Part shown: positions 2,714 to 55,540 of the stretch, in pieces
Layout: each line of letters starts with the position of its first letter
Position numbering within the stretch: the stretch's first letter is position 1
Assembly (NCBI GenBank): GCA_045837725.1
Contig: JBEWZL010000013.1
Location: 186,001-250,000 of the forward strand
From: Vermamoeba vermiformis
Taxonomy: Eukaryota
DNA: 64,000 bases
Reading direction: 5' to 3'
The notes under the pieces: generated by a model
The model's input: the letters and a program-made list of their open reading frames with translations, nothing else
Databases searched by the model: none
What the model was told of the DNA's origin: nothing
Position numbers and translations under genes: made by a program

Positions 2714-5561
2714 GCTGTGGGCTGAGATCGAAAAACCGAAGAAGTCTCTCACATATAGCCAGGTAAGCTTTTTCGCAGCAAATGTACGAGACCATCTCTT
2801 CGGCGAAATTTCGATAACTTACTAACATTGCGCAGTCAGCAACTACAGTACTTCGACGGCATGAAGAGCTGTTTATATGGACTGTCTGTGGGAAGCAACA
2901 ACTCTCACACATCCGAAGACGTACTAGGGCGGCACGTGACTATAAGCGTTGAGAAGTTCTTTTTTTCTCGGCAGTGCGGTTAGTGGGTCGTTCCATTGCC
3001 TGTCATACTCGGCGAGTTCAAAAAGGCTAAATCGAAAGGCATAATGTCTGATATGTAAGTACAACACCGCCCTACTTACCGACAATTAACACTACACTCG
3101 CAGATGCAAGTTGAGCCGCTCTGGCGATCCACCACATTGGAACAGCTCTACTTGACCACGTCTACATCGTCACCTACATTCATCGATTTTCTTTAGCCCT
3201 GTACATCGTTGGCAGCTAACGTTCGAGAGTGAAGGTCATTTCATTGGAGCTTCATATCGGTCTGTTGAAAAGACTCGGGGAGTTGGTGCAGAACAGGCGT
3301 GCTTCTCAAGTCGATAGCAACAATACCAAAAGAAAGACTACAACTAGCTCATCGCACATCCATCACTTTGGAAGTGACAAGCACAACGAAAGTCCATTGA
3401 AAGGGCCGTTCTACGCAGAAGAATACGCCAAAGAGAACCGCGATCATCAACTAAGAAAAATGAAGGGACTACAAGCGGAAACAAGAACTTCAAGACCACA
3501 ACATTGTGGGTAGTTGAAAACGTAAGTAAGTTGCCCGTAGTACTTGATAAACTTCAATGCATTAGAGTGTTGAGAAACACTCGTATAAACGCAGGTATGC
3601 CCTAATAAGGCAACCTAAATACATACATACCTAAGAAGAGGTACGCTAGTAACCGATTTAGGTGCCTGAAAATGTTCGAACCAACAACTTTGACGGTCAA
3701 ATCGCTGTTCAAAAGATCGGCACACAGCAAGATTGAGTACGAGGCGATCGCAGTTCAAAGGTAACATCAATTATTCCGTGAGTACCAATTTAACTTGCTT
3801 CAGGTCCCTATGTGGCAGAGCGCTTATCAGTTGGCACGAATGATACTGGACGGAGAAAGACTACAAGGATGATTATGATCGCGTTTATGCCGCCAGACTG
3901 AAGGTTAGTTTTTTTTGTTGCATTTGCATCTAGTTCCATTTAATTATGATTTAGCGCACATCTTACTCCCCCATCTTGTTTTTTTAAATTTTTTTTTATC
4001 CGAAGTATTAACTCCTTTCGCCTTAGAACATCCAGCATCAAGCGTATCAACTGCCGAAAGGTACAAAGATCATAGACCAGTGTTTATCGTCGAAGAGAAA
4101 CGGCCGGACCAACTATGAAGTAGTGCGGAGGGAACTGACCTTCTACATAATTTTAATATTGGAACTGTATCGTTCGCTATTCCCACAAGGGACCTTCAGT
4201 CTCTGCGGACTAGGACAAGTCGGCGAACATCATCTGAGAGGTGCTTCATGGTCCTTAGACCGAATTGTGTATCGACAGAAAAAAGTTTCTTTTTTTAAAT
4301 TTTTTGGAAATTTATTTTTTTTTTTGGGTTTTTTTTTTTTTGCGACGTGAAGCTGCGTTGGTTGGGTGTGGGACTCAGCATAAGCAGGATGAGACGAAAA
4401 GGATCTTGGCAGAAAACAGCAAATGAGAACATGCACAAAAAGTAAGTATCGCAATCATTGATTCTTGGCAGTACTATTACCCAATTTCTAATTATGCCAT
4501 AGAGTCTCAGCAAGTACTTTGATGGAATCTTTGTGCGCATGAAACTCCGCTTCCTCGGCACTGTTCTCGACAATGACAGCAGGCACATTAAGACCAGCTG
4601 TCTTGCTTGGCACTGATATCAACAAATCCGGATATAATTGAAGTTGCTCGTATTTAGTACCAGGTGGTTGGCACGGCAGCTGTTTGTCACTGGTTGAAGA
4701 TTTTCCAAACCTCAAATCCGGACAATTGCGGATGCGATTGCTCTCGTTGTCAAGGAAGGAAAAGAGGTCGAAGATATATGGAAGCCGTATTTCATCGACT
4801 CTTATTGTGGCTCCAGAAGTAAGTCCAAGTTAAGCTGAAACGTGGTTTTACGTACCAAGCGTAAATTTGCGATATTTGTCTATCGATTCACCAACACTGT
4901 TAACAATTCATTATTTAACTATTATTGTATTAGCATCACACCAAGCTTAAAGTTAGCGACTGCGATTGATTGATCTCGAGGTAAGCGCAGCGCTGATTGT
5001 TAATAAGACGTAAGTACTAACGGTTAACAGACCGCGCGACCTTTCATCCCAGGAGAGCGAGAGAGTTTTTATTGTGGCACGGACGTCTTTTTATGGCCCC
5101 GAAATGCTGCTACAAGAAACCTGCCAACGAAAAGCCAGATATTTTGTCTGTCAGTTTGGCTATCGCCCGTTTAGTACGTAACTCTAACCCAGCATTGCAC
5201 TAGCTAACACCTAGCAGACGTACAATGCACACTTAATCAACACAACAACGAGAGCTGATGTCATCAACGCGGTACGAGCTCAACAGACCTCAAAACTGGC
5301 AACAAAATCGTTGAGTATGTGGGACTTAATTATCTTTCGTTGTTGCAAAATAACTGAAATTGTTTCAGTCGAACTGTTGGCAAGATGCTGACCGACAACT
5401 CTCGGCAACTCATCATCACTGCGACTGACGCGCTCGCAATTTGACGTCAGATCGAAGCTCGTCTGCTGCCACAACGTCGCGAGCACCGCTGAAGCCAATG
5501 TCAACGTTGCTTACCTGGTTCCGCGAGAGACTTGTTCAGTTTTTCGATCTCAGCCCACAAC
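2714..5561. repeat. Inverted repeat pair, arms 2714-2750 and 5525-5561
   Basis: gctgtgggctgagatcgaaaaaccgaagaagtctctc versus the reverse complement of 5525-5561 (gttgtgggctgagatcgaaaaactgaacaagtctctc): 34/37 identical. Both arms are followed by ccag|gtaagc. Confidence 0.9.
4289..4341. repeat. T-rich low-complexity tract
   Basis: Several T runs of 7-14 nt in about 50 bp. Confidence 0.8.
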
Positions 5562-5640
5562 TCACGAAGCACTGGTCTTGGGATAGCTTTGTCGTTTCGT
5601 AGCCAATGTAATATTATTGTAAATGATGTAAACTTGTACA

Positions 5641-7843
5641 CTATTCCACCTTCAATTGCAAACAATTCAAATACGCCTCATTGTTGATATATTCTTGAGC
5701 GTAGAGTGGCAGCTTGGTGTACGCGCCGTGAAGGACACCAACAAGTATGAGACGTGACTGGTCGTGATAAATGATCACACGGCCGTACGAGTCCGGGAAG
5801 TTGTACGACTGGACTGGTTCTTTGAACACCAGTGGCATTGGGCACCACACGCGCACGATTACTTGAGCTTTCTCGCCTTAAGAATGACAAGTTAATTGAC
5901 GTCCATACCCTGCCAAGTCTACATTAACTATTACAATTGAGTCGTACCTCGTTCAAGACCCACGCTGCCGCGCTTAGTTTTGAGTTCATTCAAATCGAGC
6001 TCGTTGCCGTCTTTATCGAAGATCTTCAGGATTCGCTCCACCGTCATCAGACCTCGCAGCGAGACCGTTGCAAATCCACCGGAGTAACCCTGTAATTATT
6101 GCATGTTAGTCTTCACGACCGATGCGGTTCGAGATCCAGGTTCGAACGTACCTGCTTCACCACTCCATCCCACTTGCGATTGAATTTGCTTTTGTTTGCC
6201 ACGTGCACCAAGGTAGCACTGAACAGGCCTTGATATTGGCGGTACATAAACTCAGTGTTCGGCTTCAGTGCAACAGTGCCTTCAATCAGGTTTTGCAAAT
6301 GATGATAACGCTAGTAGACGCACACTTAGCAAGCACGCTTAATAGTCCAAAACACAGCTACTTACTGGTCGAAATAATAGTGTCGGGAATTGAAGTTTGA
6401 GCCCCACGTGTGAACTGTCACTTGTCAGTATCAATTGTTATATTGAAGTCTAGAGAACGTACTTGGGCAAGGCGTATTGCTTGGACATGGCGAGGTATTG
6501 TATCTCCAACACTTTTGCGTGGCCCACATACGGGTACACGCCCTTGGGCATATAATTTCTGCTGGGTTTGGCACTGCATGGGGGATAAAGCTCCACTGTG
6601 CCACCCACGCGCAGTAGGCCATCTGAAAGACAGATCAGTTTGCACGACAAGTACGGCACTGCAGTCACCTTACCCATCACATAAACAGAGAGCACGACCG
6701 TTGAGTCCTTGGGATCCACGTACACCTGTGACAGCTTGTTGGTACACGGCAATCACGCTCATGTTCAATTTTTTCACGAGTTTGACTGCGGGCACTTGGA
6801 ACTGAACTGCACGCGAATTCAATTCGCTCAGTAATGTGGGACCGTTGTACCACGGCATGTTGAGATTGGCACTCGCAGCAATGCAGTGCTGTGACGTGTC
6901 AGTTGATGTCACGGGCACAAAGGTCAATTGGTCCACGTGCTGGCCCATAATCTTCCGCGCATATTTTTGGACAGTAGCGACAGTATTATTGTACTCTACA
7001 AATGGAAATAAGTTTTCGTGCATTGTTGCAATAGATCCGCGGGTCATTGTTACCTTGTTCGGAGTACTGAATGAGATCCATTTTGTTGACGACTACGATC
7101 CAATTGGTATGTCCAGCGAGGGAGTACAAGGCGAGCAGTGCCTCTTTCAAGTCTTGTTTGTTGCTCGCAGTCACTTGACTGGGCACCACAAATACGACGA
7201 GTTGATTCTGAAAAATTTGGTTGTAAGTCATAAGTAAATTAGTAAAGCATTCTGATATCTTTCGCAACTTCAATAGTTTTCTGATAAACATTTGACGTAC
7301 CACGCCGTAGTAGTGGAACATCATCTTGCGTTGTTTCGGGCGAGTGGATGCGTGCCAAACATTTGCCATGCACGATTTCAGCTGCACGCCGAACACGTTG
7401 ACGGAATTATCGTTAATACGAACTGATCTTATCTCGTCTGAAGATGCAGTCATTCGTAGTGTATTATCGACGCCTAACGCTTCTTTTATGCGGGTCGTCA
7501 AGGTTGTGCATCCTGAAAACAATTTAAATTTTGAATATTCATAAATATTAATAATACTTATGCGCCATACCTGCACCGTTCATGCCAGTCACTAATATAT
7601 TTGATGAATTTGGTGCTGCTCCGCTTACTAGCAGCGCATCTTCAAGCAATCTCGCATAGTCCTTGGAAGCTCTTACAATTTGTATTAATTTTAATATGAT
7701 ATAACCGCATGATTTCAGAAAATAATTTAAATCGTGATCTACCTCGCAATAGTACGCAGCAACTCTTTAGTCGTTAAATAATCAAATATCTTTGCATGTA
7801 CTTCGCTTGGAATATCTTCAAATCGTGTATTACTATGCTCCAT
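5641..7843 (-). CDS. F-box plus degenerate eEF1A/HBS1-like GTPase (domains I-III) fusion, about 11 exons, roughly 540 aa
   Basis: F-box FEDIPSEVHAKIFDYLTTKELLRTIARASKDYARLLED; P-loop-like NILVTGMNGAGCTT; ALLALYSLAGHTNWIVVVNKMDLIQYSEQ; FVPVT...NMPWYNGPTLLSEL; domain II DGLLRVGGTVELYP...ALPNSHVG; domain III GEKAQVIVRVWCPMP...YGRVIIY...LVGVL. Confidence 0.8.
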
Positions 7844-8029: not shown

Positions 8030-9537
8030 TTAAATAAATACAAGAGGCTTGGCATCTTGGCGCGCTTTTTCTTCTTCATTCAACACACTACGCACCTTAT
8101 TCAAGTCTTCGCTATACTCCTTCAAAAATTGTTCCAGATCTACGTCCTTCATCGCTTTAAACGTTCCTAATGCCCGCAGCTGTTCTTCTAACTGCACCTC
8201 CTCCTCAGCGCGCTTCCTTCGGTCCTCTTCGAGCGCCAAGTTCTTTTCGAGCTCTTGAATGCGTTCAAATAGCAGTACATTTTGTTCTTTCAGCTTCTTG
8301 TTTTCAACTTTCAGATCTGAGGTCAGGGCCTTAGACGCCGTTAGCATCTGCTCCATCATATGACTCCTAATAATACCATATTTAATTAGAATAAGTACTG
8401 CTCGATAAGGCTTATAATTATTCATTACCTTTCTTCATAAAATTGTTTTTCTTCTGCGAACGCATCTGCACTTGATAATGCGCTCATTCGCAAGCAATCA
8501 TCTTCAAAGGCACTAAACATATCATCTGAATAATACGGTAGTGTTATTAATCATATTCGGAGAAGTAGATCTAGTCGACAATTGAGCACGTACTGACATT
8601 AGCAGTCTCTTGCAATATGAACTGCTTGAAGTCCTGCAGCTGTCGCTTGACTCCCACGATTGGATTGCTCGTTTCTTCGCGCTGATCGAAGCGCAACTTG
8701 AATAATGAAATGTACAACAGCAATCCTCGGGCATCGCGACCTACATCCAGTTAGTAAACACTCGAATCGAACATCTTACGTGAGAGTATCTTATTTTGTA
8801 TGTATAGTTTATCATATTATGAGTATTTATGCTTACCGTTAGCAATGTAATCAGGATCCAAAATATTCGGAATTTTCAAATGTTTCTCGGCAAGTTCAAA
8901 AGCAACGATTAGCGTCTGTTTTTTGTCCTTCTGCAATACAATAGTTATTATAAACGAATATTAAGTGTTTTAATCGAGGCTAATTCCTACCTGATCTTCG
9001 TGCTTCAAAGTTGAAAAGTCAATTATTGAGTTATCATACTTGTGTAATAAAGCCAAGAAAGGCATGCCGTTAGTGAAGCTAATGTAATAAGTGTCAGTAA
9101 GTAAGGCGCCAAATTAAGCGGTATTATGAAATTTCATCGAAGAGATCGACGACCGTTTTTTTTGCATTAAAATTGTGTGAGCATTATAATAATATTAAAA
9201 TTATACTATATATCGATATGGCATTATCCAGTAAAAATGACAATCGTTACCTTTCAAGACTATCGATTTCGACTCGATCTTTATACTCCCGCAGGAACTG
9301 ATCGCACCATTCAATGATTTGATCGCGTAGTCGTACTGCTCTATCATAAGGACCTTTATATATGTCGTTAAATATTTGTTTGATTGAAGTTGGCGTGCGA
9401 GGGCTGCGTTGTTTGTAGACGTCTTGTGAATACGAATTAAGCGAGGAGATCGAGCTGAACGAAGCACTTCTCTCGCGAGGAGATGATATTGGTGATATAA
9501 TAGGCGAGGTGTAAGTCTCGTCGGTATAAAATTCCAT
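8030..9537 (-). CDS. Single calponin-homology domain (cortexillin CH2-like) plus coiled-coil protein
   Basis: IIEWCDQFLREY...SFTNGMPFLALLHKYDNSIIDFSTL...AFELAEKHLKIPNILDPDYIAN...LLLYISLF, followed by a heptad coiled coil (ORF 8030-8425). Confidence 0.8.
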
Positions 9538-13733: not shown

Positions 13734-16700
13734 TTATTGGTTGATGCCTAATCGTGAGAAATACGATGCTCTAATTTGTTGTTCTCGACGCGCGATCTGC
13801 GCCGAGTTGACGTGCACTTGCTGCACACTGGGGCCATTGATCGCTGAGTTCATGGCAATGTCACCATCGCCCAGCTGCTTCTTGAAGTACTGTCCGACTT
13901 GAGTCTTATGTACTTGCTCGAGTTTGTTGTTCTTGTCCAAGTCAATCACTTTGACCATGCCGCTCGAATAAAAACTCTCGTCTTCCAGCACTAACAAATA
14001 TCGCACGCCACTCTGAATAGCCTTGCGCTTTTGTTCCTCCAAACTATAAAAGTGTAGAGTTAGTCTCGGCTAGTATGTTAGATGTATATTAACATGACTC
14101 ACCTAGTGTCTCTATTGCGCCAATAATCCACGCGCAAATCGGCCTCCCACAGCTTGGAAGTGATGTTCAATCGCTCAGCAAACAAACTCTTTGGTGACGC
14201 GACAAAAATGTCAAATAGTCGCACATTCGTTGGCAGTTCCTGAGGGACTGCTCGTTGCGCCATTTTCTTCTTTTTGATCGCAATGATTTTATCCACTGCA
14301 AAACTGAGACCAACAGCATTAGTCTTCTTGTAGACTGGTGCTGGTGGCACAGTGACTGGCAGTTTGTCGCTCAGTGACATAGGCAGACCATTTTGAGGGC
14401 TAAATTGGTTGTTTGTCGAGGGCTCTTCGCTGTCACTTTCCGTGTGTGCTGTGCGATCACTTGACCGCTCACTTTTGTCATTTCTGTGCACGAACAATGA
14501 GCGACCAATCATAGATAATCAGTTTGTTAATATGAACATACCTGTCAAAGCCAGATCTGCGATGACGTCTGCTGCGATGAGGAGGTTCGTTCGAGTGCGT
14601 ATTTTGATCGACAAGTCTGTCCCAACGACCTCCAACAGCGACACAATTCAACTTGCGATGATCGCCCATCACCACCACGACTTGGAAAATAAGACCTGCT
14701 GAGAAGTCGCGCGTGAGTGACATTGATGCGTCAAACGAGATCAATGTCAAGGGCACTGTCATGTCGTCCATGGCTTGTAACAGCTTGGAGGTATGTGCCA
14801 CTGCATGACGCGCTTAAAACAAGGTGTCAGCATCATCTGCTTCATGAATTTAATTAATTACCTCTGTGGCAAGCCTCGGGATATCTATGCGTGTATGGTG
14901 ATAACAAACTCTCCACGGCACTCAAAGCCCTGATTGAAGGTGTCAGACCCACGTATGACAGTATACACACGAATGTCCTTACCGTTTAGGTTCGCCTTTG
15001 ATCTGCACAAATCGCTGCAAATCATCGACCACGGGCTCAGTGAGACTCAGTTCTGAGATCAGTTGACCGCGCACAGCTGACCATGGTGACTTGCCAAGCG
15101 TGCCAATGATGCTTGACACGCTACTTCGTGTATCAACATCAGGCTCAATACCACACAGATCGTAAAAAGCTTCGAGGAGTGCAGTGTGATTGATACGAAT
15201 GTAATAAGGGGGCATGAAAGACGAGAACTGGTCCATCACTTCCGTGGCTACTTTGATCACTTCAGCTTCGGCTAAAATGACTTCGAGCTTGTCTGCAAGA
15301 GAAGGAATTAGAACACGAACTAATGAACTCAAACGTACCATTGGAGATGTTGCTAATGGACGAGGGCAAGATCATTTGCGATGGCATTGATGCGCTCAAC
15401 AATGAGACGTGATGACTGGCGAGTTGGTCTGGAGGACTGAAATCAACACGTGATTCGGTCTTGGGAACATAATTGGCGAGCATTGAAGGGGCTTGATAAC
15501 TGAGGGGCTGATGGCTGCTCATGAGTGGATTGTCACGGGCAGCAGGTGGTTGAGAGACAATGGGAGCACTGACATTCAAAGAACCAGTGGAGGTAGAGGT
15601 CTTGAGTGACTGTGATAGATTGTTGGCCTTCATGAGATTGGAGGACGATGAACTCTTGGAAAAAGAACTCAGGTTTGTCTTAGGAATGGTGATGATATTC
15701 GAGGTGGTTGGAGACGAAGGGATGGCAATAGCACCGCTACTGCGCAAAGGAGGTGATTGCAGGTGTGGTTGTGATGATGACCGCACGAGCAAATTGTCAC
15801 TAGTGCGTGCTTGAGGTATCGGCGAGGGCAGTGTGGAGTTGGGGCTAGAATGTGTTTCACTGCTTGAAAAGTCTGCTGAGGAGAGAGGGCTGAGTGGTGC
15901 TAACAATGGCAATGCAGCTCGCTTTGGGGCACTGTTTGGAGCACTTGTGACGCGTGAGGGAGTCTTGATAGGGACGTTGTTTGGCTGCACATATGAAGGA
16001 GGGCTGATCGGTCCAATAGGAGGACTGGTCGTGTGTTTGTTGTCAATTGATCTACGTAGCGGTCGTTTGCTGCCTCCTGCTGGAGTACTAGTGCCGCTGT
16101 TGCTGGGCGGAGTGGACGTGGTCTTCTGCAACACAATATCGAAATCTGCAATGAAGAACTCTTTTGGATGCAGCTCGAAGTTGTTCTTGCGGTAGACAGG
16201 GCCGAGGTCAAATCGCTTGATGATCGTTGGCTGAGCTCGTTGTTGTTGCTGCACCATTGGTCCGGGTATAGGTGCTGCTTGGAGCTGTGCCAAGTATTTT
16301 GCAAAGGGCAGTCTTAAATCATACGGCAGAGACAAGTTTGTGCCGTTAGTGAATAACACATCAACGGCGTCATCAGAATCAGCTGCGTTGATGTGATGGA
16401 GATCGTAGTCGATCCACGGCATGCGAATTTTGATGCCTCCGTGGCGCTTGAACACTTTGCCAATCAACTCGTGTGTTTGTTCCGCATCCACGAGCTCCGA
16501 AAGACTCGGAACAATAGGAACCGGTGCTGCGTCAGTGCGCGATGAAGGTGAGCTCTTCATGGTGTTCATCTTGGACAAGATAATATCTACACATGTTTAG
16601 ACGCGCGAGACAAAGGACATAACGTACCATTGCGCTCTTTTGAGAATAGAGCGTTAATCAGTCTGGCAAAGTCAGTGGACTCGGGCGAAGACAGCGTTGT

Positions 16701-18696
16701 CATTAAATTCTCCACACCGTTGGAACCAAAGATTTCACGTGGCAACAAAGGACTGCTCAGCAATTCAAAAGCCGTGGGTCTAAACCATAATTAGACTCTG
16801 CCAACTTACAATGCTGAATACGTACCGTTGATCAGGCTTTCGCTTCAGTAGCCAGCGAATGACTGCACGTTGTGCGTCGTACTTCGGGTCTTCAAAATTC
16901 TTGGGGAATATGCCTGACTTGCGCAATTTATCTAAGACAACTGCACGCTCCATTTTTGTGTCGAATTTGTAGCACAACTAGGTATATTCACACAGTTAGA
17001 CAGCCGTACTATTTTGTTATGCTTCGCGTACCTCAAACAAAATGATGCCCAAGCTGTAAATGTCACACTTGGGTCCTCTGCAACCTTCAGGACTCGTGTA
17101 GAAGAATGTCCCGACGTTTTCAGAACTCTTGCTAAAGTCAGAGTCCTCTTCTTCCTCGAGGTCAAAAGATTTGTCAATGAAGTGACAGGTCTCCATCAAT
17201 GCATTGCTCGACGGTGCCTTGCGCATCACAGCATGCAGTGTAGTAGCGAGACCAAAGTCACCAATCTTCACGTTCTCGTTCTCATCCAAGAAGATATTTC
17301 GCGGTTTAAGCTGCGGTACAAAGTCAGCTAGAGCGTGCCTAATAAAAAATCTTCACAATACGTACATCACGATGAATAATGCCTTGCGAGTGAATGTAGA
17401 CCAAGCCTTCGATGATCTGACCGAAGATGTGCCATATTTTGGTTGGATTGTTGAAGAGCGTGCCTTCATCGATTACATGGCGCAATGTACGTTCACAGTA
17501 GTCCATCTGAATGTACAAATACTGAGGAGGCTCTGATTTAGCTTGTTTCTTGCGTATATGAAGCTATATAGTAGGGTTAGCTAGATTGTCGGTTGCACAG
17601 AAATTGAGGTTAAAAATCAACGAAATTCACGAGTTCTTATTTCGATGAAGATCTGGATGCATACCTGTTTTATATCCAAACCAGCCTGTCTGAGTTGCTT
17701 CTTGTAGCAGTTGGGACATAAGTGCAATGTGCGTATGCTGAAATGGAGCTTTTCCCACTCTGAATCCGAAACCTCCCAGTCGGAGTATTCGATCGCGCAC
17801 GTATCGCATTCCAAATGTTCTTCTTCCAGTTCAAAGGTCTCGTTTAAAGAAGAATCTTCTTGTTTTTTAGAGGAACTCTCGGAGACGGAGCTCTCGTCAG
17901 AGTCCGACACCTCTTCGTCGGACATTCCGAAAAAGGTCGGCTCGCGCTGGAATTTATCCAGCACCGTATCCGTCGATTTAAACTTGTTATTCGTCGCTAG
18001 TTGCTTGAGTCTAGGATTCGCTATCGGTTGTAATACTGGGGAATTGTTGCCGTCTTTTTCCTTTGTGATACCTTCGCGCAGCCAATCATCGAAATTTAGA
18101 TCTTCATCTTCGCTGCTATCGGACACGACGCCCGTTGATTCTACTTCTGTCCATGAATGATAATATCTTACAATGTGTTTATGATATAAACGCGAGAGGG
18201 TTTTGACTTCTGTAAGGATCTTCTTTTTGAGATTCCGAAACAATTTGATTTTCTTGATAGCATATATTCGGCCATCTAATATATTCTGTGCTTTCACTAC
18301 TTCTCCAAAAGCTCCTTTACCCAAAAATTCGAGCTCTTCGAAATCACTGCATTAAATAAAAAATCAGATCAATCGAAATGGAATTTCCTGGTTTATTGAC
18401 ACATGCAAACTCTTTGATTCCTATCTTGTTATTTACGATATCGAAGATTTGAATTAGGTAGAACACAGTTCATGAATAAAGAAACTGCAGAGTAAATTTC
18501 GTATGATGGATGTTACCGTTGCAAGAAAATAGAGTAATGCCTCTAAAGCATCGAGGCCCTAATTTATTTAATATGAATTAATTTACCTTTGGTACCGTGA
18601 AGACTTGGTGAGATTAACTAGATTGCCAGATGCTGATCGAGCAATTTTTCTTCGAGGTTCAGCAACAGATCCTTTTCTGACAGATCCTTTATCCAT
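13734..18696 (-). CDS. GCN2: GCN2/IfkA-like eIF2-alpha kinase: kinase plus HisRS-like and C-terminal domains, no RWD or pseudokinase
   Basis: [74 protein letters not shown]. HisRS-like LPYDLRLPFAKYLA, HPKEFFIADFDIV, IRINHTALL, AVGGRWD. Confidence 0.88.
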
Positions 18697-25600: not shown

Positions 25601-28600
25601 CACAAGTCCAGACGACATTTCTTTCTACGGAAATCAATCAATACCTCGACCTCCACCTTCATGGACACCATGGCTCCTAGCACCTAGTCTGCCCACAAAG
25701 TCCATCAAGCCTCTTACTACACTCCGGCTCGAAGGTCTCATCAAATCATACCTCGACTTCGTGACTGGACTGCCAAATTTAGATCTGCTGACACGATTCT
25801 TCGTTGTGTCGGTGCTCGGTTCAAACGACCGTCTGTTCACCCAAGCACTCGTAGATACTGCTGTGAGCATCGAGTCTTGGCTACTAGATCACGTGATTGT
25901 CGAAGAGTGTCAAGTGAGTCTTCTCGAGGCTGAATAGGCTTAATCAGGCCAGCACTGACAGCTTCTCTGCCTGCCTACAATCTCGTACAACTCTTGCTGA
26001 AGTGGCCTCGCTCTTTGTGGCACAACATATTCGACGCAACATTCAGTCAGTCAATTTCAACTGACCAGTCTTGTCTTGGTCTGGGCACCTGCTAGAGTTT
26101 ATTGAACAGCAAAAGACAGACCTCAGTGGATGCACTGACTTGTGCGGGCGATTGCAGTATTGCCTATCAAGGCCATCTATCACCACGCAGAACGCAATGA
26201 CCCAGCGATGGTCTGCTCTGTTCAAGCGCATTTGGATGATGGACTATACGGTCCTGGACCCCTCCACGATCGAATTTGGACTGATTGAATGGCTTGACTG
26301 GGAACTACTTGCCTTCAACGACCCATCTTGGCACCTGTCACAAGTGTCAACAACAGACCTCGATGCTTATCACAAGCGTATGATTGACACGTTGACATCT
26401 AGACCTGTCCAACACCGGCGAAATAAGTTGAGTGTCGATATGGAGTCTGCTCTGAAACACGCGCTGTTAACTCTTCTTAAGCACAGCGTTAATAGTTACA
26501 ATCGTCATCAATAGTAAGTTACTATCCAAAGCCTAAATTGTGTTGTTAATCGAGTTGCTAGCTCGGAGTGTCCTAAGTTCATCACAACTCTATTTGATAA
26601 GCTGTGCCAAATCATCAACAACCCAAACAACACCACTGTCAATCATTACCCGGTCACTATGTGGCTATTTCAACAGTTTCAACAGATCGAAGCTCTTGCT
26701 CCGATAATATCTTTCATCGACAAGATTCTCCCTCACATTTTGTTAGTCCCCTTCATGCAAACTGAAGAGTAAGTAATAAGTGTTAACTAAGACGACGAGT
26801 GCTAACATTTAATGAAGTGAACTCCAAACGTGGACCGGTGCGTGGAACAAGCTCTGCAAACGTGCACGGTCTAACGAAGTGTTTGCACGTGTGGTGTTAA
26901 TCAGTATAGCACGTGGCTGGTGTTTAAGACACTCGTTGCTTGGAGCATCGAAAGGGGACAAAGCAAAGCAGTCCCATTTAGAAACGATGTTGCCGACTGT
27001 CATTAGTGCGATGACCGAACCAGTCAAATCGACAATTGTTTCACAGCTCGCAAAAGACTTCTCGGCACTACGTGATAGCAAGCGGTCATCAGCCATCGAC
27101 AAGAGCTTCAAATACTTCGAGAACAAGTGCGCTGAAATTGAATCTAATGACGAGATGGCCATTGACCAGAGTGACGTTTCGAATGAATTCAAGAACCCAT
27201 TTGAAGTGATCGCGCGAGCCCCTAGGCAGATGAATCGTCCATTGGCACAAAGTAGCATTGATCTTCCAATCGCTTCTTCGCCATCAAAGGAAGGCCAACC
27301 AGAGAACAATACCAATGTCATAGCACGGCTGAACAAAAGCCTTGACTTACCCACGGACAACTACACTCCCGTCAGATTACAACCTCGACCAAGTCCAGTG
27401 GCTGTACCTCCAAAGCTTTCAGCACTGCCTCCCAAAGAACATATTCAAGTTGTTCTGCCTCAAGAAGATGAAGCCTTGAACAGTCAAATGGACATTGATA
27501 TTGAACTTAGCTTGCCCAAAGATCTCAGTGAGGTCAATTTAGATATGTCAGAGAACGATTTGTTTGAAGACATGACACTCACTGACAGTCCAAAGAATAA
27601 GTCCAATAGAGCAGTTAAATCACCGAAGACACCAACTACAAAGACACCTGTTACTAAAAAGACAACGCCAAAGTCTAAATCTAACACTAATCGCAAGTCG
27701 GGCACTGATGAGGAAGATATTCAAACAAAGGCCAAAGAGGTAGATACGCCAAAGGATGATTCCGAGGCCTCGGAAGATAAGGAAGTTGAGCTCAAGAAAC
27801 ACAACAAAAGTAAGGCAACTCCAAATAACAAAGCAACTAAAAAGGAAGTCGAAGCGAAGAATACCATTAACGAGAAGAAATCTCCTTCCAAATCACCAAC
27901 TCAAAAGAACAAGATCAGCAACTCAAAGACTTCAAAATCTAAAGCAAGTACGAAAAAATCGCCCGCGTCCAAGAAGAAGAAAGCAAAGAAAGAAAGCGAG
28001 GAGAGCTCCAGTGAGAAAAGCGAAAAAGATGGAGAGCAAGAGCGAGAAGAATAGTGAAAAGAACAGTGACAGTGACAGTGACAGCGAGAAGAACGAGAAG
28101 AGTAGCCATAGCAAGAGCGACAGCGAGAAGAGTAAAAAGAGCACGAGTAGTCGCGAAGAGAAGAGCGATGCGAGTTCTGAAAGTGAGTCAAAAGAACAGT
28201 CAAAGAGCAAAAGCAGCAAGAAGAACAAAGCAAGCAACGATTCAGACAGTGACAGCGAAGAAAAGAGTTCGAGTTCTAAGTCCAGCGCTAAGTCATCTAG
28301 CTCCAAGTCATCATCGAGCTCAAAATCCAGTGCCAAGTCCTCGTCGAGTTCTTCGAGTTCTAAATCAAGTTCGGCCAAGAAGTCATCAAGTGCAAGTGAA
28401 AAAAGTGACAGTAAATCCAGTCGAAGCAAAGACGAAAGCGACGAAGAAAAGAGTGAAACGAGCAAGTCCGCGAGTGCAAGCGAACTTAAAGCCCCGGTTA
28501 AGAAGAAGAAAAGTCCTCCGAAAAAGAAGCCCCAGAGACCGAACGGCAGAGCTACAGCTAAGAAATCACCGATACAGAATAAGAAGCCAAAGAACAAACA

Positions 28601-29225
28601 GAAGAAACTTAAGAGCGAAAGCGACGAAGAAAAAGAGGAAGACAAGACAAAGAGCACGAATAAGAGCAAGAAAAAGACCACGAAAGATACTGATAAAGAC
28701 ACTGATAAAGATGCAGCGAGTGAAGACAAAGAGCAGACACCCAAAAGCAGTAAGAAGATGCCGAACAAAGACAGCGAGCCAATTAACAAACAACCAGCTT
28801 TGCGGAAAGAGAAACATGCACAGAAAACAGCCGACGCCAAAAAGAAACAAAGCAAGAACCAAGAGGCCGCTGTTGAGAATATGATCGATGAAGGTGACAC
28901 GCGTCAAAGTGTCAATCTTCCGCTTTCCCCAGTTAAATCAACCACTGCGCCAGTGCGGTCACTGTCAGGTCTGTCGCAAATCAAGATGTCGTTAGATCTG
29001 CCACTGAGTCAAGATACAATTGACCTGACAGTCAGCACTGATGTTAACGGCAGTATCGATGGTGATTGCGTCGTGTTGAGCTCTCAAGGGCCAATTGACG
29101 ATGACTTTCAGCCCACTGGCTCGCATTTGAAACGTAAACGAAGTGACGCACTGACGATGAAGCCGAACAAGCGCTCCAAAGCCACACCAAGCAATGCCAA
29201 TGCGACGCAAGAAATGAGCGATTGA
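22670..29225 (+). CDS. Large alpha-helical protein, weakly FANCA-like, with a very long K/S/E-rich disordered tail; apparent +1 frameshift near 28030
   Basis: Chain of spliceable ORFs 23182-26514 and 26879-28054/27756-29225. Segments EWLDWELLAFNDPSW...DLDAYHKRMI and LIRRLPHEPKTVI recall FANCA. The gene is well supported; the family call is weak. Confidence 0.55.
27950..28900 (+). repeat. Low-complexity coding tract (SEK/SDS/SSK repeats, GACAGT tandem units near 28065-28085)
   Basis: A/G-rich repeats encoding SDSDSDSEK, SSSKSSAKSSSSK and KDTDKDTDKD. Confidence 0.85.
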
Positions 29226-29458
29226 GGAGGAGATGTAGCGCTTACTGTAAATACCTTGTAAATAATCATACATCGCACTTGATTGTTAATGCACGCCTTG
29301 CGGTCGGAAAATTGTTCCCACACGCTAAAATTGGTTTGCGACAACAATTTCTGTGTGTCACGAGACAAGTTGACCGACAAAAAACTGTCCCTTTTCGATG
29401 AATTATTATAGTTTCAAGGCAGTAGCACAACAAATGAACTGATCGTATTCTAGACACG

Positions 29459-54452: not shown

Positions 54453-55540
54453 TCACTTTCTCTTCATTGTGTGCAGGTAAGTGCATTGCTCGCCCTTGTT
54501 GCACATCTTCTGCAGCCAGTGAAAGCAGACCAACTCCTCGCGCACTTCAATGTCTGGCTGTTCCTCTTCATTCGCAGCATCCTGGGCATTATCTGGCTCA
54601 GCCTCCTCTTCAACCTCCTCTTCCTCGCCGTTCTCATTATTTTCACCTTCAGCGTCTTTCTTCGCAGGATACATGTTGTACCACGTCTTGCGGCCCAAAT
54701 GAGGGTTGGGTGCGTGCCAGGGCATGCCATCCTCGTCCAAATAAGGTAATATTTCAGACTCGTCAATAAATGTCGTGCGACCGTCTTCGATTCGATTCAA
54801 ATAAAATCTCGTTGGCTTCCTTTCAGTGGTCAGACCGAGCGCCAATACGGTGCCGAGGACTTGCTTCACGGTGGAATTGAACGTGGCAGATGTGGTCTTG
54901 TGATGAATTTGTTTGGCAATGCGCAATACGTTCTCTAAGGTGATGTCGCCTTTGTACTTGTCTACAAAGGGTCAGTTCAATTAACCAATAGAAGTGACAA
55001 TCGTTGTGTCACGTACATTGTTGCTTGGTCCATCGTCTGCGATTGATTTCATACCCTGCGCGCCACAGATTAGCAGAAATTAAATTGCGTGATTCGAAGT
55101 CCTTGATGGGTGCCGATGAGGCTCTAATCACCATCTGCGAGGTCGTGGGAGTGCATCGGCAGATGCACTCTCCGGATTTGTTGCCCTTCCACGTAAATGT
55201 TATATCAACTTTATAATCGCGCCACGGCATGGTAAAATCTGTCGTGTAAGTCGAAACTCCAGCTACTCCACCCTTTACTGGCTAAATTGAGATAAGAATA
55301 TTGCCCGAATTTATTAATTTCGCTACCAAAACTTACTGTGCCATTGATAGTTTTGGGCATTAATGATTTTATAAGATCAAATGCTGCACAACCAGTGGAC
55401 TTCGCTCTCCCTCCATACGCGCGGTGCGTAACTCGAAAAAAACGTCAATACTTTTAGTATTAACCACGCGCTAACTTACCACTGTGCTCCTCGAGCGTAG
55501 TTTGGTTACTATCGGCGCTTTGTTTTGGTTTGTACATCTC
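54453..55540 (-). CDS. Divergent uL11/RPL12-like protein fused to an acidic linker and C-terminal CCCH zinc finger; start uncertain (about 55540-55628)
   Basis: LRTAYGGRAKST; PWRDYKVDITFTW; CTPTTSQMVIRASSAPIKD; KYKGDITLENVLRIAKQIHHKTTSATFNSTVKQVLGTVLALG...LNRIEDG; terminal CFHWLQKMCNKGEQCTYLH. Confidence 0.75.

What the first reader, a model, noticed from the sequence alone, without database searches (positions are those of the whole stretch)
5641..7843. F-box fused to a full-length, catalytically degenerate eEF1A-like scaffold: candidate translation-factor-mimic SCF adaptor
Seen: hand-spliced exons give an N-terminal F-box followed, in order, by all three EF1A-like domains. The P-loop reads NILVTGMNGAGCTT (compare eEF1A NIVVIGHVDSGKST), so the invariant Lys is Cys. 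G3 DxxG is replaced by VWHAS, while G4 NKMD, NMPWYNGPTLL, a domain II barrel and a domain III barrel remain. Established: F-boxes bind Skp1 to recruit substrates to SCF ligases; eEF1A/eRF3/HBS1 domains II-III bind aa-tRNA, eRF1/Pelota, the ribosome and actin. Inference: a pseudo-GTPase reused as a substrate receptor that brings ubiquitin ligase activity to translation machinery or actin, possibly in ribosome quality control or defence against intracellular bacteria or giant viruses. I do not know a described protein with this architecture. The ORF track splits it into unrelated-looking fragments.
Basis: partly seen in the sequence, partly recalled or inferred. Interest (0 to 1): 0.85.

Follow-up and report, generated by a model that had tools for sequence, protein, structure and literature searches.

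The report
F-box protein with EF1A-like body
A real, spliced eukaryotic gene encodes an F-box joined to a complete but catalytically degenerate copy of translation elongation factor 1A, a rare, apparently undescribed architecture that may link a ubiquitin ligase to the translation machinery.

Summary
On the minus strand, 7843..5641, ten GT-AG exons encode about 544 aa: an N-terminal F-box followed by a G domain, domain II and domain III of the a/eEF1A type. The P-loop Lys is Cys (GMNGAGCTT), DxPGH is NVWHAS, and NKMD is kept.

A 540-aa orthologue (P0002, 64-75% identical) sits as one open frame on 1.7-2.4 kb contigs. It passes Pfam's F-box-like cut-off, matches archaeal EF1A by sequence (6.6e-10), and its model matches a/eEF1A over about 500 columns (8e-28).

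Transcript-like contigs of a near-identical relative remove five predicted introns and carry the exon 1-exon 2 junction.

Correction: with the transcript-supported intron 5 (6673..6623), the window has one extra base at 6738 that breaks the frame. The only DNA contig and the only transcript contig laid there lack a base.

A distant transcript (P0032) has the same F-box-EF1A order with an intact P-loop.

The family is tiny in 1.8 billion representatives, and six literature searches found no description. The SCF-receptor function is inferred, not tested.

The parts
7743..7843 (-). Exon 1: start codon at 7843 and the first half of the F-box (residues 8-33).
   Evidence: Splice model. Pfam F-box-like E 1.6e-4 on this exon alone. 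The start MEHSNTRF matches the orthologue start MEHYIARF.
7571..7671 (-). Exon 2: second half of the F-box (to about 7635), a linker, and the first six residues of the P-loop (GMNGAG).
   Evidence: The P0002 F-box-like match covers residues 8-46. A 14-letter loose end of an X6 contig at 7673 equals 13 of 14 letters of exon 1's 3' end, window 7745..7758.
7505..7586 (-). Degenerate G1/P-loop GMNGAGCT, split by intron 2 (7570..7513). Cys69 (7510..7508) replaces the invariant Lys.
   Evidence: Lys in 33 of 33 EF1A-like rows; Cys in P0002 and in the window. An X6 joint at 7511/7570 removes intron 2. The genomic fragment P0018 of the orthologue species has an intron read-through at the same point.
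7301..7512 (-). Exon 3: the rest of the P-loop, a region with no recognisable switch I (no RGITI), and the G3 equivalent NVWHAS at 7363..7346.
   Evidence: DxPG in 29 of 33 EF1A-like rows; NLWHAS, NVWHAS or NVWHAT in the family.
7054..7207 (-). Exon 4: the most conserved stretch (LVVFVVPSQ...GHTNWIVVVNKMDL), with G4 NKMD at 7087..7076.
   Evidence: 92% identical to P0002. There are 35 invariant columns in alignment A4. Weak Pfam GTP_EFTU match, E 0.087. An X6 joint at 6995/7054 removes intron 4.
6674..6995 (-). Exon 5 as used in transcripts: the end of the G domain (NMPWYNGPTLL at 6861..6829) and the first strands of domain II. It contains the frame-breaking extra base.
   Evidence: X6 joint at 6622/6674. 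Orthologue genomic fragments P0001, P0010 and P0020 read this exon in a single frame.
6738..6738 (-). Extra C (caaCaag) that shifts the frame of the window copy relative to all relatives.
   Evidence: the CDS is 1636 nt and hits stops after the shift; the only X1 DNA contig there (depth 6.01 of 6.01) leaves out one letter at 6738. The only X6 transcript contig (3.68 of 3.68) leaves out one letter at 6741.
6623..6673 (-). Intron 5 (51 nt, GT..AG), transcript-supported. It replaces my first guess of 6725..6659.
   Evidence: X6 joint 'skips 51', with 160 letters on the shorter side. P0002 reads AVYVL|DGLVRVG across the same point.
6463..6622 (-). Exon 6: domain II barrel (DGLLRVGGTVELYPP...AKVLEIQYLAMSKQYALP).
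   Evidence: PDB alignment of P0002 residues 159-311 to aEF1A. X6 joint at 6414/6463.
6366..6414 (-). Exon 7: the end of domain II (NSHVGLKLQF...).
   Evidence: X6 joints at 6414/6463 and 6310/6366. Colinear with P0002.
6152..6310 (-). Exon 8: a variable linker and the start of domain III.
   Evidence: tblastn of P0002 residues 365-415 at 53% identity. The three nonsynonymous X6 differences that were listed fall here.
5948..6089 (-). Exon 9: domain III (GYSGGFATVSLRG...).
   Evidence: tblastn of P0002 residues 415-464 at 68% identity. Foldseek alignment of the orthologue model to a/eEF1A covers about 500 columns.
5641..5876 (-). Exon 10: the end of domain III (RGEKAQV...YGRVIIYHD...) and the stop codon TAG at 5643..5641.
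   Evidence: tblastn of P0002 residues 464-533 at 73% identity..

Best explanation
This is a genuine, conserved, transcribed protein-coding gene of a microbial or small eukaryote. Its product, about 544 aa once the extra base is set aside, is an F-box protein whose whole C-terminal part is a paralogue of a/eEF1A.

Shown here:
- The F-box sits at the N-terminus.
- The body keeps the G-domain/domain II/domain III fold.
- The phosphate-binding and catalytic elements are gone: P-loop Lys to Cys, no switch I motif, and DxPGH replaced by NVWHAS.
- The guanine-specificity motif NKMD and the structural core are strongly conserved.

Inferred:
- The F-box docks on Skp1 of an SCF ubiquitin ligase.
- The EF1A-like pseudo-GTPase acts as the substrate-recognition module. 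It would use surfaces inherited from EF1A-family factors to bind a partner of such factors, and so bring that partner, or something next to it, to the ligase. Candidate partners are an eRF1/Pelota-type protein, an exchange factor, tRNA, or the ribosomal factor-binding site.
- GTP hydrolysis is not part of the cycle. Nucleotide binding may be weak or absent.

The window's own copy carries a one-base insertion in exon 5. This is most likely an assembly or haplotype peculiarity, because the only DNA contig and the only transcript contig laid over that place lack a base there.
For: Gene structure: ten exons, nine GT-AG introns and one ORF. Five of the nine introns are removed exactly in X6 contigs, and the exon 1/2 junction is present as a 13-of-14 loose-end match.

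One transcript: four 540-aa orthologue proteins lie on contigs whose longest are 2358, 1667, 1721 and 2244 nt. Genomic fragments of the same cluster run into introns at the same places.

Conservation:
- Window against P0002 is 74.6% over 276 aa and 64.0% over 261 aa.
- Exon 4 is 92% identical.
- A roughly 31-38% identical group (P0144, P0021, P0026, P0028) keeps NKMD and the domain III motifs.
- Of the 10 X6 differences listed in exons, 7 are synonymous.
- The 7 X1 differences listed inside the gene are 6 in introns and 1 synonymous.

F-box: P0002 scores 25.5 bits on F-box-like against a cut-off of 24.3. P0032 scores 25.1 on F-box against 20.5. Window exon 1 gives E 1.6e-4.

EF1A body:
- phmmer of P0002 against PDB gives aEF1A at 6.6e-10 and Hbs1 at 4e-8.
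- The AF2 model has pLDDT 76.8 and pTM 0.78.
- Foldseek gives 3wxm_G at 8.1e-28, TM 0.71, 499 columns, followed by eEF1A, eRF3, Hbs1l and Ski7.

Degenerate motifs.

Old fusion: P0032 aligns colinearly with P0002 from the F-box (residue 8) into domain III, at E 5e-19. It has GTP_EFTU 9.1e-13, eEF1A_C 9.8e-10 and D3 8.2e-8, all above their cut-offs.

Precedent for an EF1A-like GTPase domain used as an adaptor: the Ski7 GTPase-like domain is among the fold matches (4zke, 7.4e-21). [quoted passage not shown]
Against: - No step of the proposed function was tested: neither Skp1 binding, nor ligase assembly, nor any substrate.
- The F-box part of the model has low confidence (pLDDT 35-66 over residues 1-50).
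- P0002's GTP_EFTU match is below Pfam's cut-off (21.3 against 26.5 bits).
- The alignment used for the model was mostly true EF1A-like proteins, so the fold result is not independent of the sequence homology.
- Strict conservation of NKMD, and of SA in the roughly 30% identical group, suggests nucleotide binding may not be fully lost.
- P0032 keeps the P-loop Lys and DxPG, so the family is not uniformly 'dead'.
- As assembled, the window copy is frameshifted.
- Only 10 of about 53 X6 differences were listed, so the synonymous excess is a small sample.
Confidence: 0.55

Rival explanations
1. The EF1A-like body is the working part and the F-box only regulates it. The body would be a ribosome-, tRNA- or decay-complex-binding factor of the Ski7/Hbs1/GTPBP kind. 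The F-box would control its own turnover by auto-ubiquitination, or dock Skp1 outside an SCF ligase. It would not be there to recruit substrates.
For: - NKMD is invariant and is the most conserved block of the protein.
- P0032 keeps GxxxxGKT and DxPG.
- The model superposes best on closed, GTP-type or ribosome-bound forms: 3wxm, 9bdp, 5lzw and 5lzt at TMt 0.71-0.73, against 0.43-0.45 for GDP forms.
Against: - The loss of the P-loop Lys, switch I and DxPGH in the window and P0002 lineage argues against a nucleotide-driven factor cycle.
- The model's conformation may simply be inherited from the alignment.
- F-box proteins generally act as receptors (established knowledge, recalled).
Confidence: 0.2
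2. The window copy is a recently inactivated pseudogene or a null allele. On this reading the one-base insertion at 6738 is real, and this haplotype makes no full-length protein, although the family is functional in relatives.
For: - The window as assembled has the extra C, and the transcript-supported splice gives early stops.
- The site is not a homopolymer run.
- X1 contigs show two alleles nearby, at 5871..6024, with 0 and 11 differences. The 540-nt X1 contig over exon 5 differs from the window by 4 letters and 2 gaps. Haplotype differences therefore exist.
Against: - The only X1 DNA contig at that place lacks the base (6.01 of 6.01), and so does the X6 transcript contig.
- There is no other defect in ten exons, all splice sites are intact, and exons are far better conserved than introns.
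Confidence: 0.15
3. It is a decoy or defence receptor. The dead EF1A copy would mimic eEF1A so that microbial or viral factors that attack eEF1A bind it and are ubiquitinated through the F-box.
For: Only indirect evidence. The protein keeps the EF1A shape without its chemistry. The family is small, lineage-restricted and fast-evolving outside the core: 64-75% between the two full-length orthologues and about 31-38% to the next group.
Against: - No evidence of positive selection.
- No association with defence genes in the window. The neighbours are PP2C, a kinase, a WD40 protein, Furry and DIRP.
- No viral relative.
Confidence: 0.07
4. It is a gene-model artefact: the F-box exon belongs to another gene, and the EF1A-like part is a separate, decaying paralogue.
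For: The ORF track shows only fragments. RNA raw reads of runs X17 and X19 gave no usable depth on the gene.
Against: - Single 540-aa ORFs on 1.7-2.4 kb contigs in the orthologue.
- The exon 1/2 junction is in an X6 contig.
- P0032 has the same order in an independent transcript.
- The upstream same-strand ORF ends with a stop at 8030..8032.
Confidence: 0.03

Closest known systems
Archaeal/eukaryotic elongation factor 1A (aEF1A, eEF1A)
   Same: Same three-domain order and fold. It is the best sequence and fold match for both family members tested: P0002 at 6.6e-10 and 8.1e-28, and P0032 at 1.2e-23 over residues 57-491. The NKMD and (M)PWY.GPTL motifs are shared.
   Different: It has an N-terminal F-box. 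The P-loop Lys is Cys, the switch I motif is missing, and DxPGH is replaced. There is an insertion at the start of domain II (alignment). It is only 16-20% identical to the solved a/eEF1A chains listed in the structural alignments.
Ski7 (and Hbs1, eRF3, GTPBP1/2): EF1A-family paralogues used in mRNA surveillance
   Same: An EF1A-type body diverted from elongation. The Ski7 GTPase-like domain, Hbs1/Hbs1l and eRF3 are all fold matches (4zke 7.4e-21, 5lzw 1.1e-23, 5lzt 2.6e-24). SKI7 is described as a bridge between complexes in an abstract listed (PMC13232801, start of abstract only).
   Different: Those proteins carry other N-terminal regions, not an F-box. By sequence score the family is nearer a/eEF1A than Hbs1 or eRF3. 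No phylogeny with named references was made.
F-box proteins of the 'other domain' class (SCF substrate receptors)
   Same: An N-terminal F-box of about 40 residues followed by a separate protein-binding domain. The general logic of F-box receptors is recalled textbook knowledge.
   Different: The receptor domain here is a whole translational-GTPase paralogue. I found no such combination in print: and 0 occurrences of 'F-box' in the main text of the trGTPase survey PMC4342817.
RNF14/RNF25-GCN1 pathway that ubiquitinates eEF1A and eRF1 trapped on stalled ribosomes
   Same: A functional analogy only: a ubiquitin ligase directed at the ribosomal factor-binding site. I saw bioRxiv 10.1101/2022.03.21.485216 and 10.1101/2023.01.31.526456 as search listings with the start of their abstracts.
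   Different: Those are unrelated RING/RBR ligases that recognise the real factors. Here a factor look-alike is itself fused to the ligase-docking motif. No evidence links this gene to stalled ribosomes.
P0032, an unnamed 504-aa protein from a EukProt Trinity transcriptome
   Same: Same order of F-box, G domain, domain II and domain III, with the same spacing from the F-box to the P-loop. Colinear alignment at E 5e-19.
   Different: Only 23% identical. It keeps GPPQSGKTS and DTPGN but has NFMS in place of NKxD, the opposite pattern of motif decay.

Membership tests
F-box proteins | Match to a curated F-box profile at or above its cut-off, at the N-terminus. | tested here: met
   P0002 scores 25.5 bits on PF12937 against a cut-off of 24.3, residues 8-46. 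P0032 scores 25.1 on PF00646 against 20.5. For the window itself only exon 1 could be scored: 21.8 bits, E 1.6e-4, for the first 23 model positions. The spliced window protein could not be handed to the tool.
F-box proteins | Three-helix F-box fold. | tested here: inconclusive
   The model has helices 2-10, 13-25 and 32-50, but pLDDT is only 35-66 there.
F-box proteins | Binds Skp1 and assembles into an SCF ligase. | not testable with these tools
EF1A family of translational GTPases | G domain followed by the domain II and domain III beta-barrels. | tested here: met
   Foldseek on the P0002 model gives a/eEF1A over about 500 columns, E 8.1e-28, TMt 0.71-0.73. P0032 matches GTP_EFTU, eEF1A_C and D3 above their cut-offs. 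The P0002 GTP_EFTU match itself is below cut-off, 21.3 against 26.5 bits.
EF1A family of translational GTPases | G1 P-loop GxxxxGK[ST]. | tested here: not met
   GMNGAGCT in the window and GMTQAGCT in P0002. Lys is present in 33 of 33 EF1A-like rows.
EF1A family of translational GTPases | G2 switch I (RGITI) and G3 DxPGH with the catalytic His. | tested here: not met
   There is no RGITI-like stretch, and NVWHAS or NLWHAS stands at the G3 position. DxPG is present in 29 of 33 EF1A-like rows.
EF1A family of translational GTPases | G4 NKxD. | tested here: met
   NKMD at 7087..7076. It is invariant in P0002, P0001, P0019, P0023, P0026 and P0028.
EF1A family of translational GTPases | GTP-dependent delivery of aa-tRNA, or of an eRF1/Pelota-type partner, to the ribosome. 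| not testable with these tools
   This needs biochemistry.
Pseudo-GTPases | GTPase fold with loss of the motifs needed for binding or hydrolysis. | tested here: met
   Fold; loss of G1 Lys, G2 and G3. This rests on sequence only.
Pseudo-GTPases | Measured absence of GTP hydrolysis, with or without nucleotide binding. | not testable with these tools
   This needs a nucleotide-binding and hydrolysis assay. The retained NKMD leaves binding open.

The most novel reading that the evidence does not exclude
A translation-factor mimic serves as the targeting arm of a cullin ligase. The dead EF1A body would dock where EF1A-family factors dock, either on the ribosomal factor-binding site or on an eRF1/Pelota-type partner. 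That would bring SCF ubiquitination to stalled or aberrant translation complexes. It would be an independently evolved protist counterpart of the RNF14/RNF25-type surveillance of occupied A sites. The family would also preserve stages of the decay from a working GTPase: P0032 with an intact P-loop, and the window lineage with Cys in place of Lys.
Probability: 0.15. Interest if true: 0.85.

Novelty: new variant of a known kind. Interest (0 to 1): 0.6.

Why it matters
F-box proteins and EF1A paralogues are both well known, but I could not find a whole translational-GTPase paralogue serving as the C-terminal domain of an F-box protein, either in print or beyond a handful of sequences among 1.8 billion representatives.

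If the inferred function holds, it would show a new way to direct ubiquitination at translation machinery: by molecular mimicry of a factor. It would also add a second case, after Ski7, of an EF1A-type domain turned into a scaffold.

The family offers a natural series for studying how a GTPase becomes a pseudo-GTPase, because P0032 and the window lineage have lost complementary motifs.

Its reach is limited by the narrow, unnamed lineage and by the lack of any functional data.

Tried and rejected
- **First splice model.** I placed intron 5 at 6725..6659, which gives an uninterrupted 539-aa ORF. I rejected it because X6 contigs use 6673..6623 and the orthologues read the skipped part as coding sequence.
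- **RNA evidence from the labelled species.** The look-up of sequencing runs gave no RNA holder. Raw RNA runs X17 and X19 gave depth 0 over 5628..7446 and at most 0.5 over 7447..7660. None of their laid reads was 99% or more alike, and reads on the neighbouring gene carried many differences. These runs therefore come from a diverged strain and say nothing about expression.
- **Whole genome.** None is held for this window.
- **Metagenome-contig scans.** P0002 matched 45 pattern stretches with none confirmed. Alignment A4 matched 476 pattern stretches with none confirmed. So I obtained no orthologue DNA, no dN/dS on full coding sequences and no synteny.
- **Viral-contig scan with A4.** 258 pattern matches, none confirmed.
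- **BFVD fold search.** Only generic giant-virus GTPases at 8-16% identity.
- **Protein atlas on P0002.** Only generic GTP_EFTU clusters at 0.82, below the level the tool treats as more than a lead.
- **Protein atlas on the Furry-like neighbour.** It gave no usable taxon.
- **Word-indexed searches.** P0002 found only itself plus CysN-like proteins at 27% coverage (7 proteins at E 1e-3 or better among 8000 scored). P0032 found only itself plus two EF1A-like proteins.
- **Rfam on the window.** 0 matches.
- **Exon-wise Pfam.** Most exons are too short to score; 5 of 9 pieces gave nothing at E up to 1.
- **MAFFT on short exon pieces.** Several pieces were misplaced, so the rows of A1 and A2 from exons 1, 2, 6, 8, 9 and 10 should not be trusted.
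- **Complex prediction with Skp1.** Not run, because no Skp1 sequence was available under the rules.
- **Supplementary files of papers.** Closed. The supplements of the trGTPase survey (PMC4342817) might list lineage-specific EF1A subfamilies that I could not see.
Full report
**1. What is in the sequence**

The region lies in ordinary eukaryotic DNA of about 43% G+C. Its short introns make the six-frame ORF list look fragmentary.

On the minus strand an ATG at 7843 opens an exon that ends at a GT donor. Following GT-AG borders gives ten exons ending at a TAG at 5643..5641. My first hand splice gave a clean 539-aa ORF with nine GT-AG introns of 48-93 nt.
- NILVTGMNGAGCTT.
- NVWHAS at the G3 place.
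- NKMD (7087..7076).
- NMPWYNGPTLL (6861..6829).
- Barrel-like stretches after these.

**2. Relatives and the one-transcript question**

I searched with the translation of exon 5, allowing longer proteins. Two proteins came back among 42 candidates:
- P0001, a 195-aa fragment, 92% identical.
- P0002, 540 aa, 66% identical over that exon.

P0002 starts MEHYIARFEDIPSEVHAKIF... and runs colinearly with the window gene to its end. It is 74.6% identical over 276 aa of the N-terminal half and 64.0% over 261 aa of the C-terminal half.

Its 90% cluster has 10 members:
- Four are 540 aa long, on contigs whose longest are 2358, 1667, 1721 and 2244 nt. A 1623-nt frame barely fits on these, so they are intron-free copies, that is, transcripts.
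- Five shorter members (101-111 aa) are exon-sized pieces on longer contigs, up to 590 kb. Those that reach the end of exon 5 run on into unrelated residues where the window has intron 5; the tenth member (47 aa) looks unrelated. Fragments outside this cluster (P0018, P0022) do the same at introns 2, 3 and 4.

So in the orthologue species the gene has the same introns, and the F-box and the EF1A-like body are on one mRNA.

For a near-identical relative, contigs of run X6 laid on the window skip exactly 7570..7513, 7053..6996, 6673..6623, 6462..6415 and 6365..6311, each with CT..AC ends on the plus strand. That is five of the nine introns.

One 284-nt X6 contig that spans intron 2 also ends in 14 loose letters beyond 7673. 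These equal 13 of 14 letters of window 7745..7758, the 3' end of exon 1. The exon 1/exon 2 junction is therefore present too. The tool labels X6 as 'RNA?', a guess, but precise intron removal shows that it holds spliced copies.

**3. A correction: the window copy is frameshifted**

The X6 joint places intron 5 at 6673..6623, not where I had put it. The orthologues read the stretch I had spliced out as coding sequence. For example, DSTVVLSVYVM|DGLLRVGG in the window's second frame corresponds to ESTVVMAVYVL|DGLVRVGD in P0002.

With the supported intron, the window CDS is 1636 nt and runs into stops. The cause is one extra C at 6738 (caaCaag).

In one search the only DNA contig of run X1 over that place (depth 6.01 of 6.01) leaves out one letter at 6738. 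The only X6 contig (3.68 of 3.68) leaves out one at 6741. Either change restores the frame.

The X1 contig differs from the window by 4 other letters and one further gap over 540 nt, all of them in intron 5. X1 also shows two alleles at 5871..6024. The window may therefore be one haplotype of a heterozygous organism. I cannot tell an assembly error from a null allele; contigs drop rare variants.

Apart from this base, nothing in the gene is broken.

**4. What the protein is**

*F-box.*
- Window exon 1 alone: F-box-like, E 1.6e-4, model positions 1-23 of 47.
- P0002: F-box-like, 25.5 bits, above the cut-off of 24.3, residues 8-46.

*EF1A-like body.*
- P0002 against PDB sequences gives archaeal EF1A at 6.6e-10, S. 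pombe Hbs1 at 4e-8 and yeast eEF1A at 2.4e-3. The match covers residues 159-311, from G4 into domain II.
- Pfam GTP_EFTU is only 21.3 bits, below its cut-off of 26.5.
- An AlphaFold2 model of P0002, built with a 53-row alignment, has mean pLDDT 76.8 and pTM 0.78.
- Foldseek against PDB gives GTP-bound archaeal EF1A (3wxm_G) at 8.1e-28, TM 0.71 on the target, over 499 columns. It is followed by eEF1A on the ribosome, eRF3, Hbs1l, CysN, EF-Tu and the Ski7 GTPase-like domain.
- All three domains are therefore covered.
- Caveat: the alignment was mostly true EF1A-like proteins, and several short window rows were probably misaligned. The fold is a consequence of the homology rather than an independent proof.

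*Motifs.*

| Motif | EF1A-like rows of A1 | This family |
|---|---|---|
| G1 GxxxxGK[ST] | Lys in 33 of 33 | Cys in P0002 and the window |
| G2 switch I | RGITI-like | Absent |
| G3 DxPG | 29 of 33 | NLWHAS, NVWHAS or NVWHAT |
| G4 NKMD | Present in most rows | Invariant in the close family members; lies in the most conserved block of the protein (35 invariant columns in A4) |

By sequence this is a pseudo-GTPase that may still have a guanine pocket.

**5. How large is the family?**

A full HMMER pass of P0002 over 1.84 billion representatives gave 127 proteins at E 1e-3 or better, 7 at 1e-10 or better and 3 at 1e-30 or better. The specific relatives fall into three sets:
- Exon-sized fragments of close orthologues: P0001, P0018-P0020, P0022, P0023 and P0027.
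- A group 31-38% identical to the window protein (P0021, P0144, P0026, P0028). It keeps NKMD, an SA G5 motif and the domain III motifs. Its N-terminus is not known.
- P0032, a 504-aa protein from a EukProt Trinity transcriptome.

P0032 scores as follows, all above the cut-offs: F-box 25.1 bits (cut-off 20.5), GTP_EFTU 9.1e-13, GTP-eEF1A_C 9.8e-10 and GTP_EFTU_D3 8.2e-8. It aligns with P0002 from residue 8, with the same spacing between the F-box and the P-loop (BLASTP 5e-19, 23% identity).

P0032 has GPPQSGKTS and DTPGN but NFMS instead of NKxD. Against PDB it ranks aEF1A (1.2e-23), then eEF1A (2.6e-18), Hbs1l (1.4e-16), CysN and eRF3.

The fusion therefore looks older than the decay of the GTPase centre, and different lineages lost different motifs. 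Word-indexed searches with P0002 and P0032 found no further members.

**6. Selection and expression**

- Of the 10 X6 differences listed inside exons, 7 are synonymous. The 3 nonsynonymous ones lie in the variable linker between domains II and III. Only 10 of about 53 differences were listed, so this is a small sample.
- The 7 X1 differences listed in the gene are 6 intronic and 1 synonymous.
- P0001 is 92% identical in exons, but its read-through of intron 4 is unrelated in frame to the window's.
- Frames stay open across about 540 codons at 64-75% identity, and about 31-38% in the next group.
- Together these argue for purifying selection on the protein.
- Expression is shown for the orthologue (intron-free contigs) and for the X6 relative, not for the window's own strain.

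**7. Mechanism**

Shown: the domain order, the fold, the motif losses and the conservation.

Inferred from the established behaviour of F-boxes as Skp1-docking modules (recalled textbook knowledge): the protein is an SCF substrate receptor, and the EF1A-like body is its recognition domain.

EF1A-family bodies bind aa-tRNA, exchange factors, eRF1/Pelota-type partners and the ribosomal factor site (recalled). The most economical guess is that one of these inherited surfaces is the business end.

Ski7 shows that an EF1A-type domain can serve as a bridge (PDB titles; start of the abstract of PMC13232801). The RNF14/RNF25 work shows that ubiquitination of factors at the A site exists as a pathway in animals (listing and abstract start only).

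None of this was tested here, and the rivals stay open: a regulated factor rather than a receptor, a decoy, or a null allele in this strain.

**8. Context and origin**

The neighbours are unremarkable eukaryotic genes: PP2C, a protein kinase, a WD40 protein, a Furry/MOR2 protein and DIRP. There is no Skp1, cullin or ubiquitin gene in the pieces I scanned.

The window holds a single copy of the gene.

Viral links were not found. A viral-contig scan confirmed nothing. BFVD fold matches are generic giant-virus GTPases, weaker than the cellular a/eEF1A matches. The gene has introns and the G+C content of its surroundings.

The organism could not be named with the tools at hand.

**9. Novelty**

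Searches of the paper library found nothing that describes an F-box fused to a translational GTPase:
- 'F-box' with 'eEF1A-like' or 'pseudo-GTPase'.
- 'F-box' with 'GTP_EFTU': three unrelated papers by title and abstract start.
- 'F-box domain' with 'translational GTPase': none.
- 'F-box protein' with 'elongation factor 1-alpha-like': two unrelated papers.

The main text of the broad trGTPase survey PMC4342817 has no occurrence of 'F-box' (passages only; its supplements were not available).

Domain-architecture databases could not be queried, so prior automatic annotation cannot be excluded.

I class this as a new variant of a known kind: an F-box protein with an unprecedented receptor domain, or equally a new pseudo-GTPase branch of the EF1A family.

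**10. Verdict**

Interest is 0.6.

Noticed in passing
window 6659..6725: An alternative GT..AG intron (67 nt) happens to restore the reading frame of the frameshifted window copy and gives a 539-aa ORF. No transcript supports it. It may be coincidence, or a rescue splice if the extra base at 6738 is real.
   Followed up: partly
window 5514..5560: RNA reads of X17 and X19 pile up (depth 9-18 per direction) on only about 40 bases just downstream of the gene. At least three different loose-end consensus sequences occur on each side. It looks like a short segment shared by several abundant transcripts or a repeat, and is not part of this gene.
   Followed up: no
window 5871..6024 and 6452..6993: X1 DNA contigs show two alleles over 5871..6024, with 0 and 11 differences in 154 nt. 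A variant contig over exon 5 and intron 5 has 4 substitutions and 2 one-base gaps. The organism seems strongly heterozygous, or the sample is mixed.
   Followed up: partly
P0032 and P0002 (alignment A1): The motif decay is complementary within one family. P0032 keeps the P-loop Lys and DxPG but has NFMS for NKxD. The window lineage keeps NKMD but lost the Lys and DxPG. The roughly 30% identical group (P0026, P0028) keeps NKMD and the G5 SA motif.
   Followed up: partly
window 15262..18351 (minus strand): Large ORF pieces with a protein kinase domain (Pkinase, E 1.2e-13) and a long Ser/Pro-rich region lie about 8-10 kb from the gene. By eye the downstream piece resembles the tRNA-synthetase-like part of a GCN2-type eIF2-alpha kinase. 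I did not test this. The proximity to a translation-related F-box gene is probably coincidental.
   Followed up: no
window 54456..54971 (minus strand): One 172-aa open frame matches both the Ribosomal_L11 RNA-binding domain (E 1.5e-5) and Torus/CCCH zinc-finger models (E 4.4e-6 and 1.2e-5). This is an odd combination. It may be two genes' exons in one frame, or a real fusion.
   Followed up: no
window 27700..29300: Overlapping long open frames on both strands lie in a Lys/Ser/Glu-rich low-complexity stretch. It is probably one real highly charged exon with mirror ORFs as artefacts.
   Followed up: no
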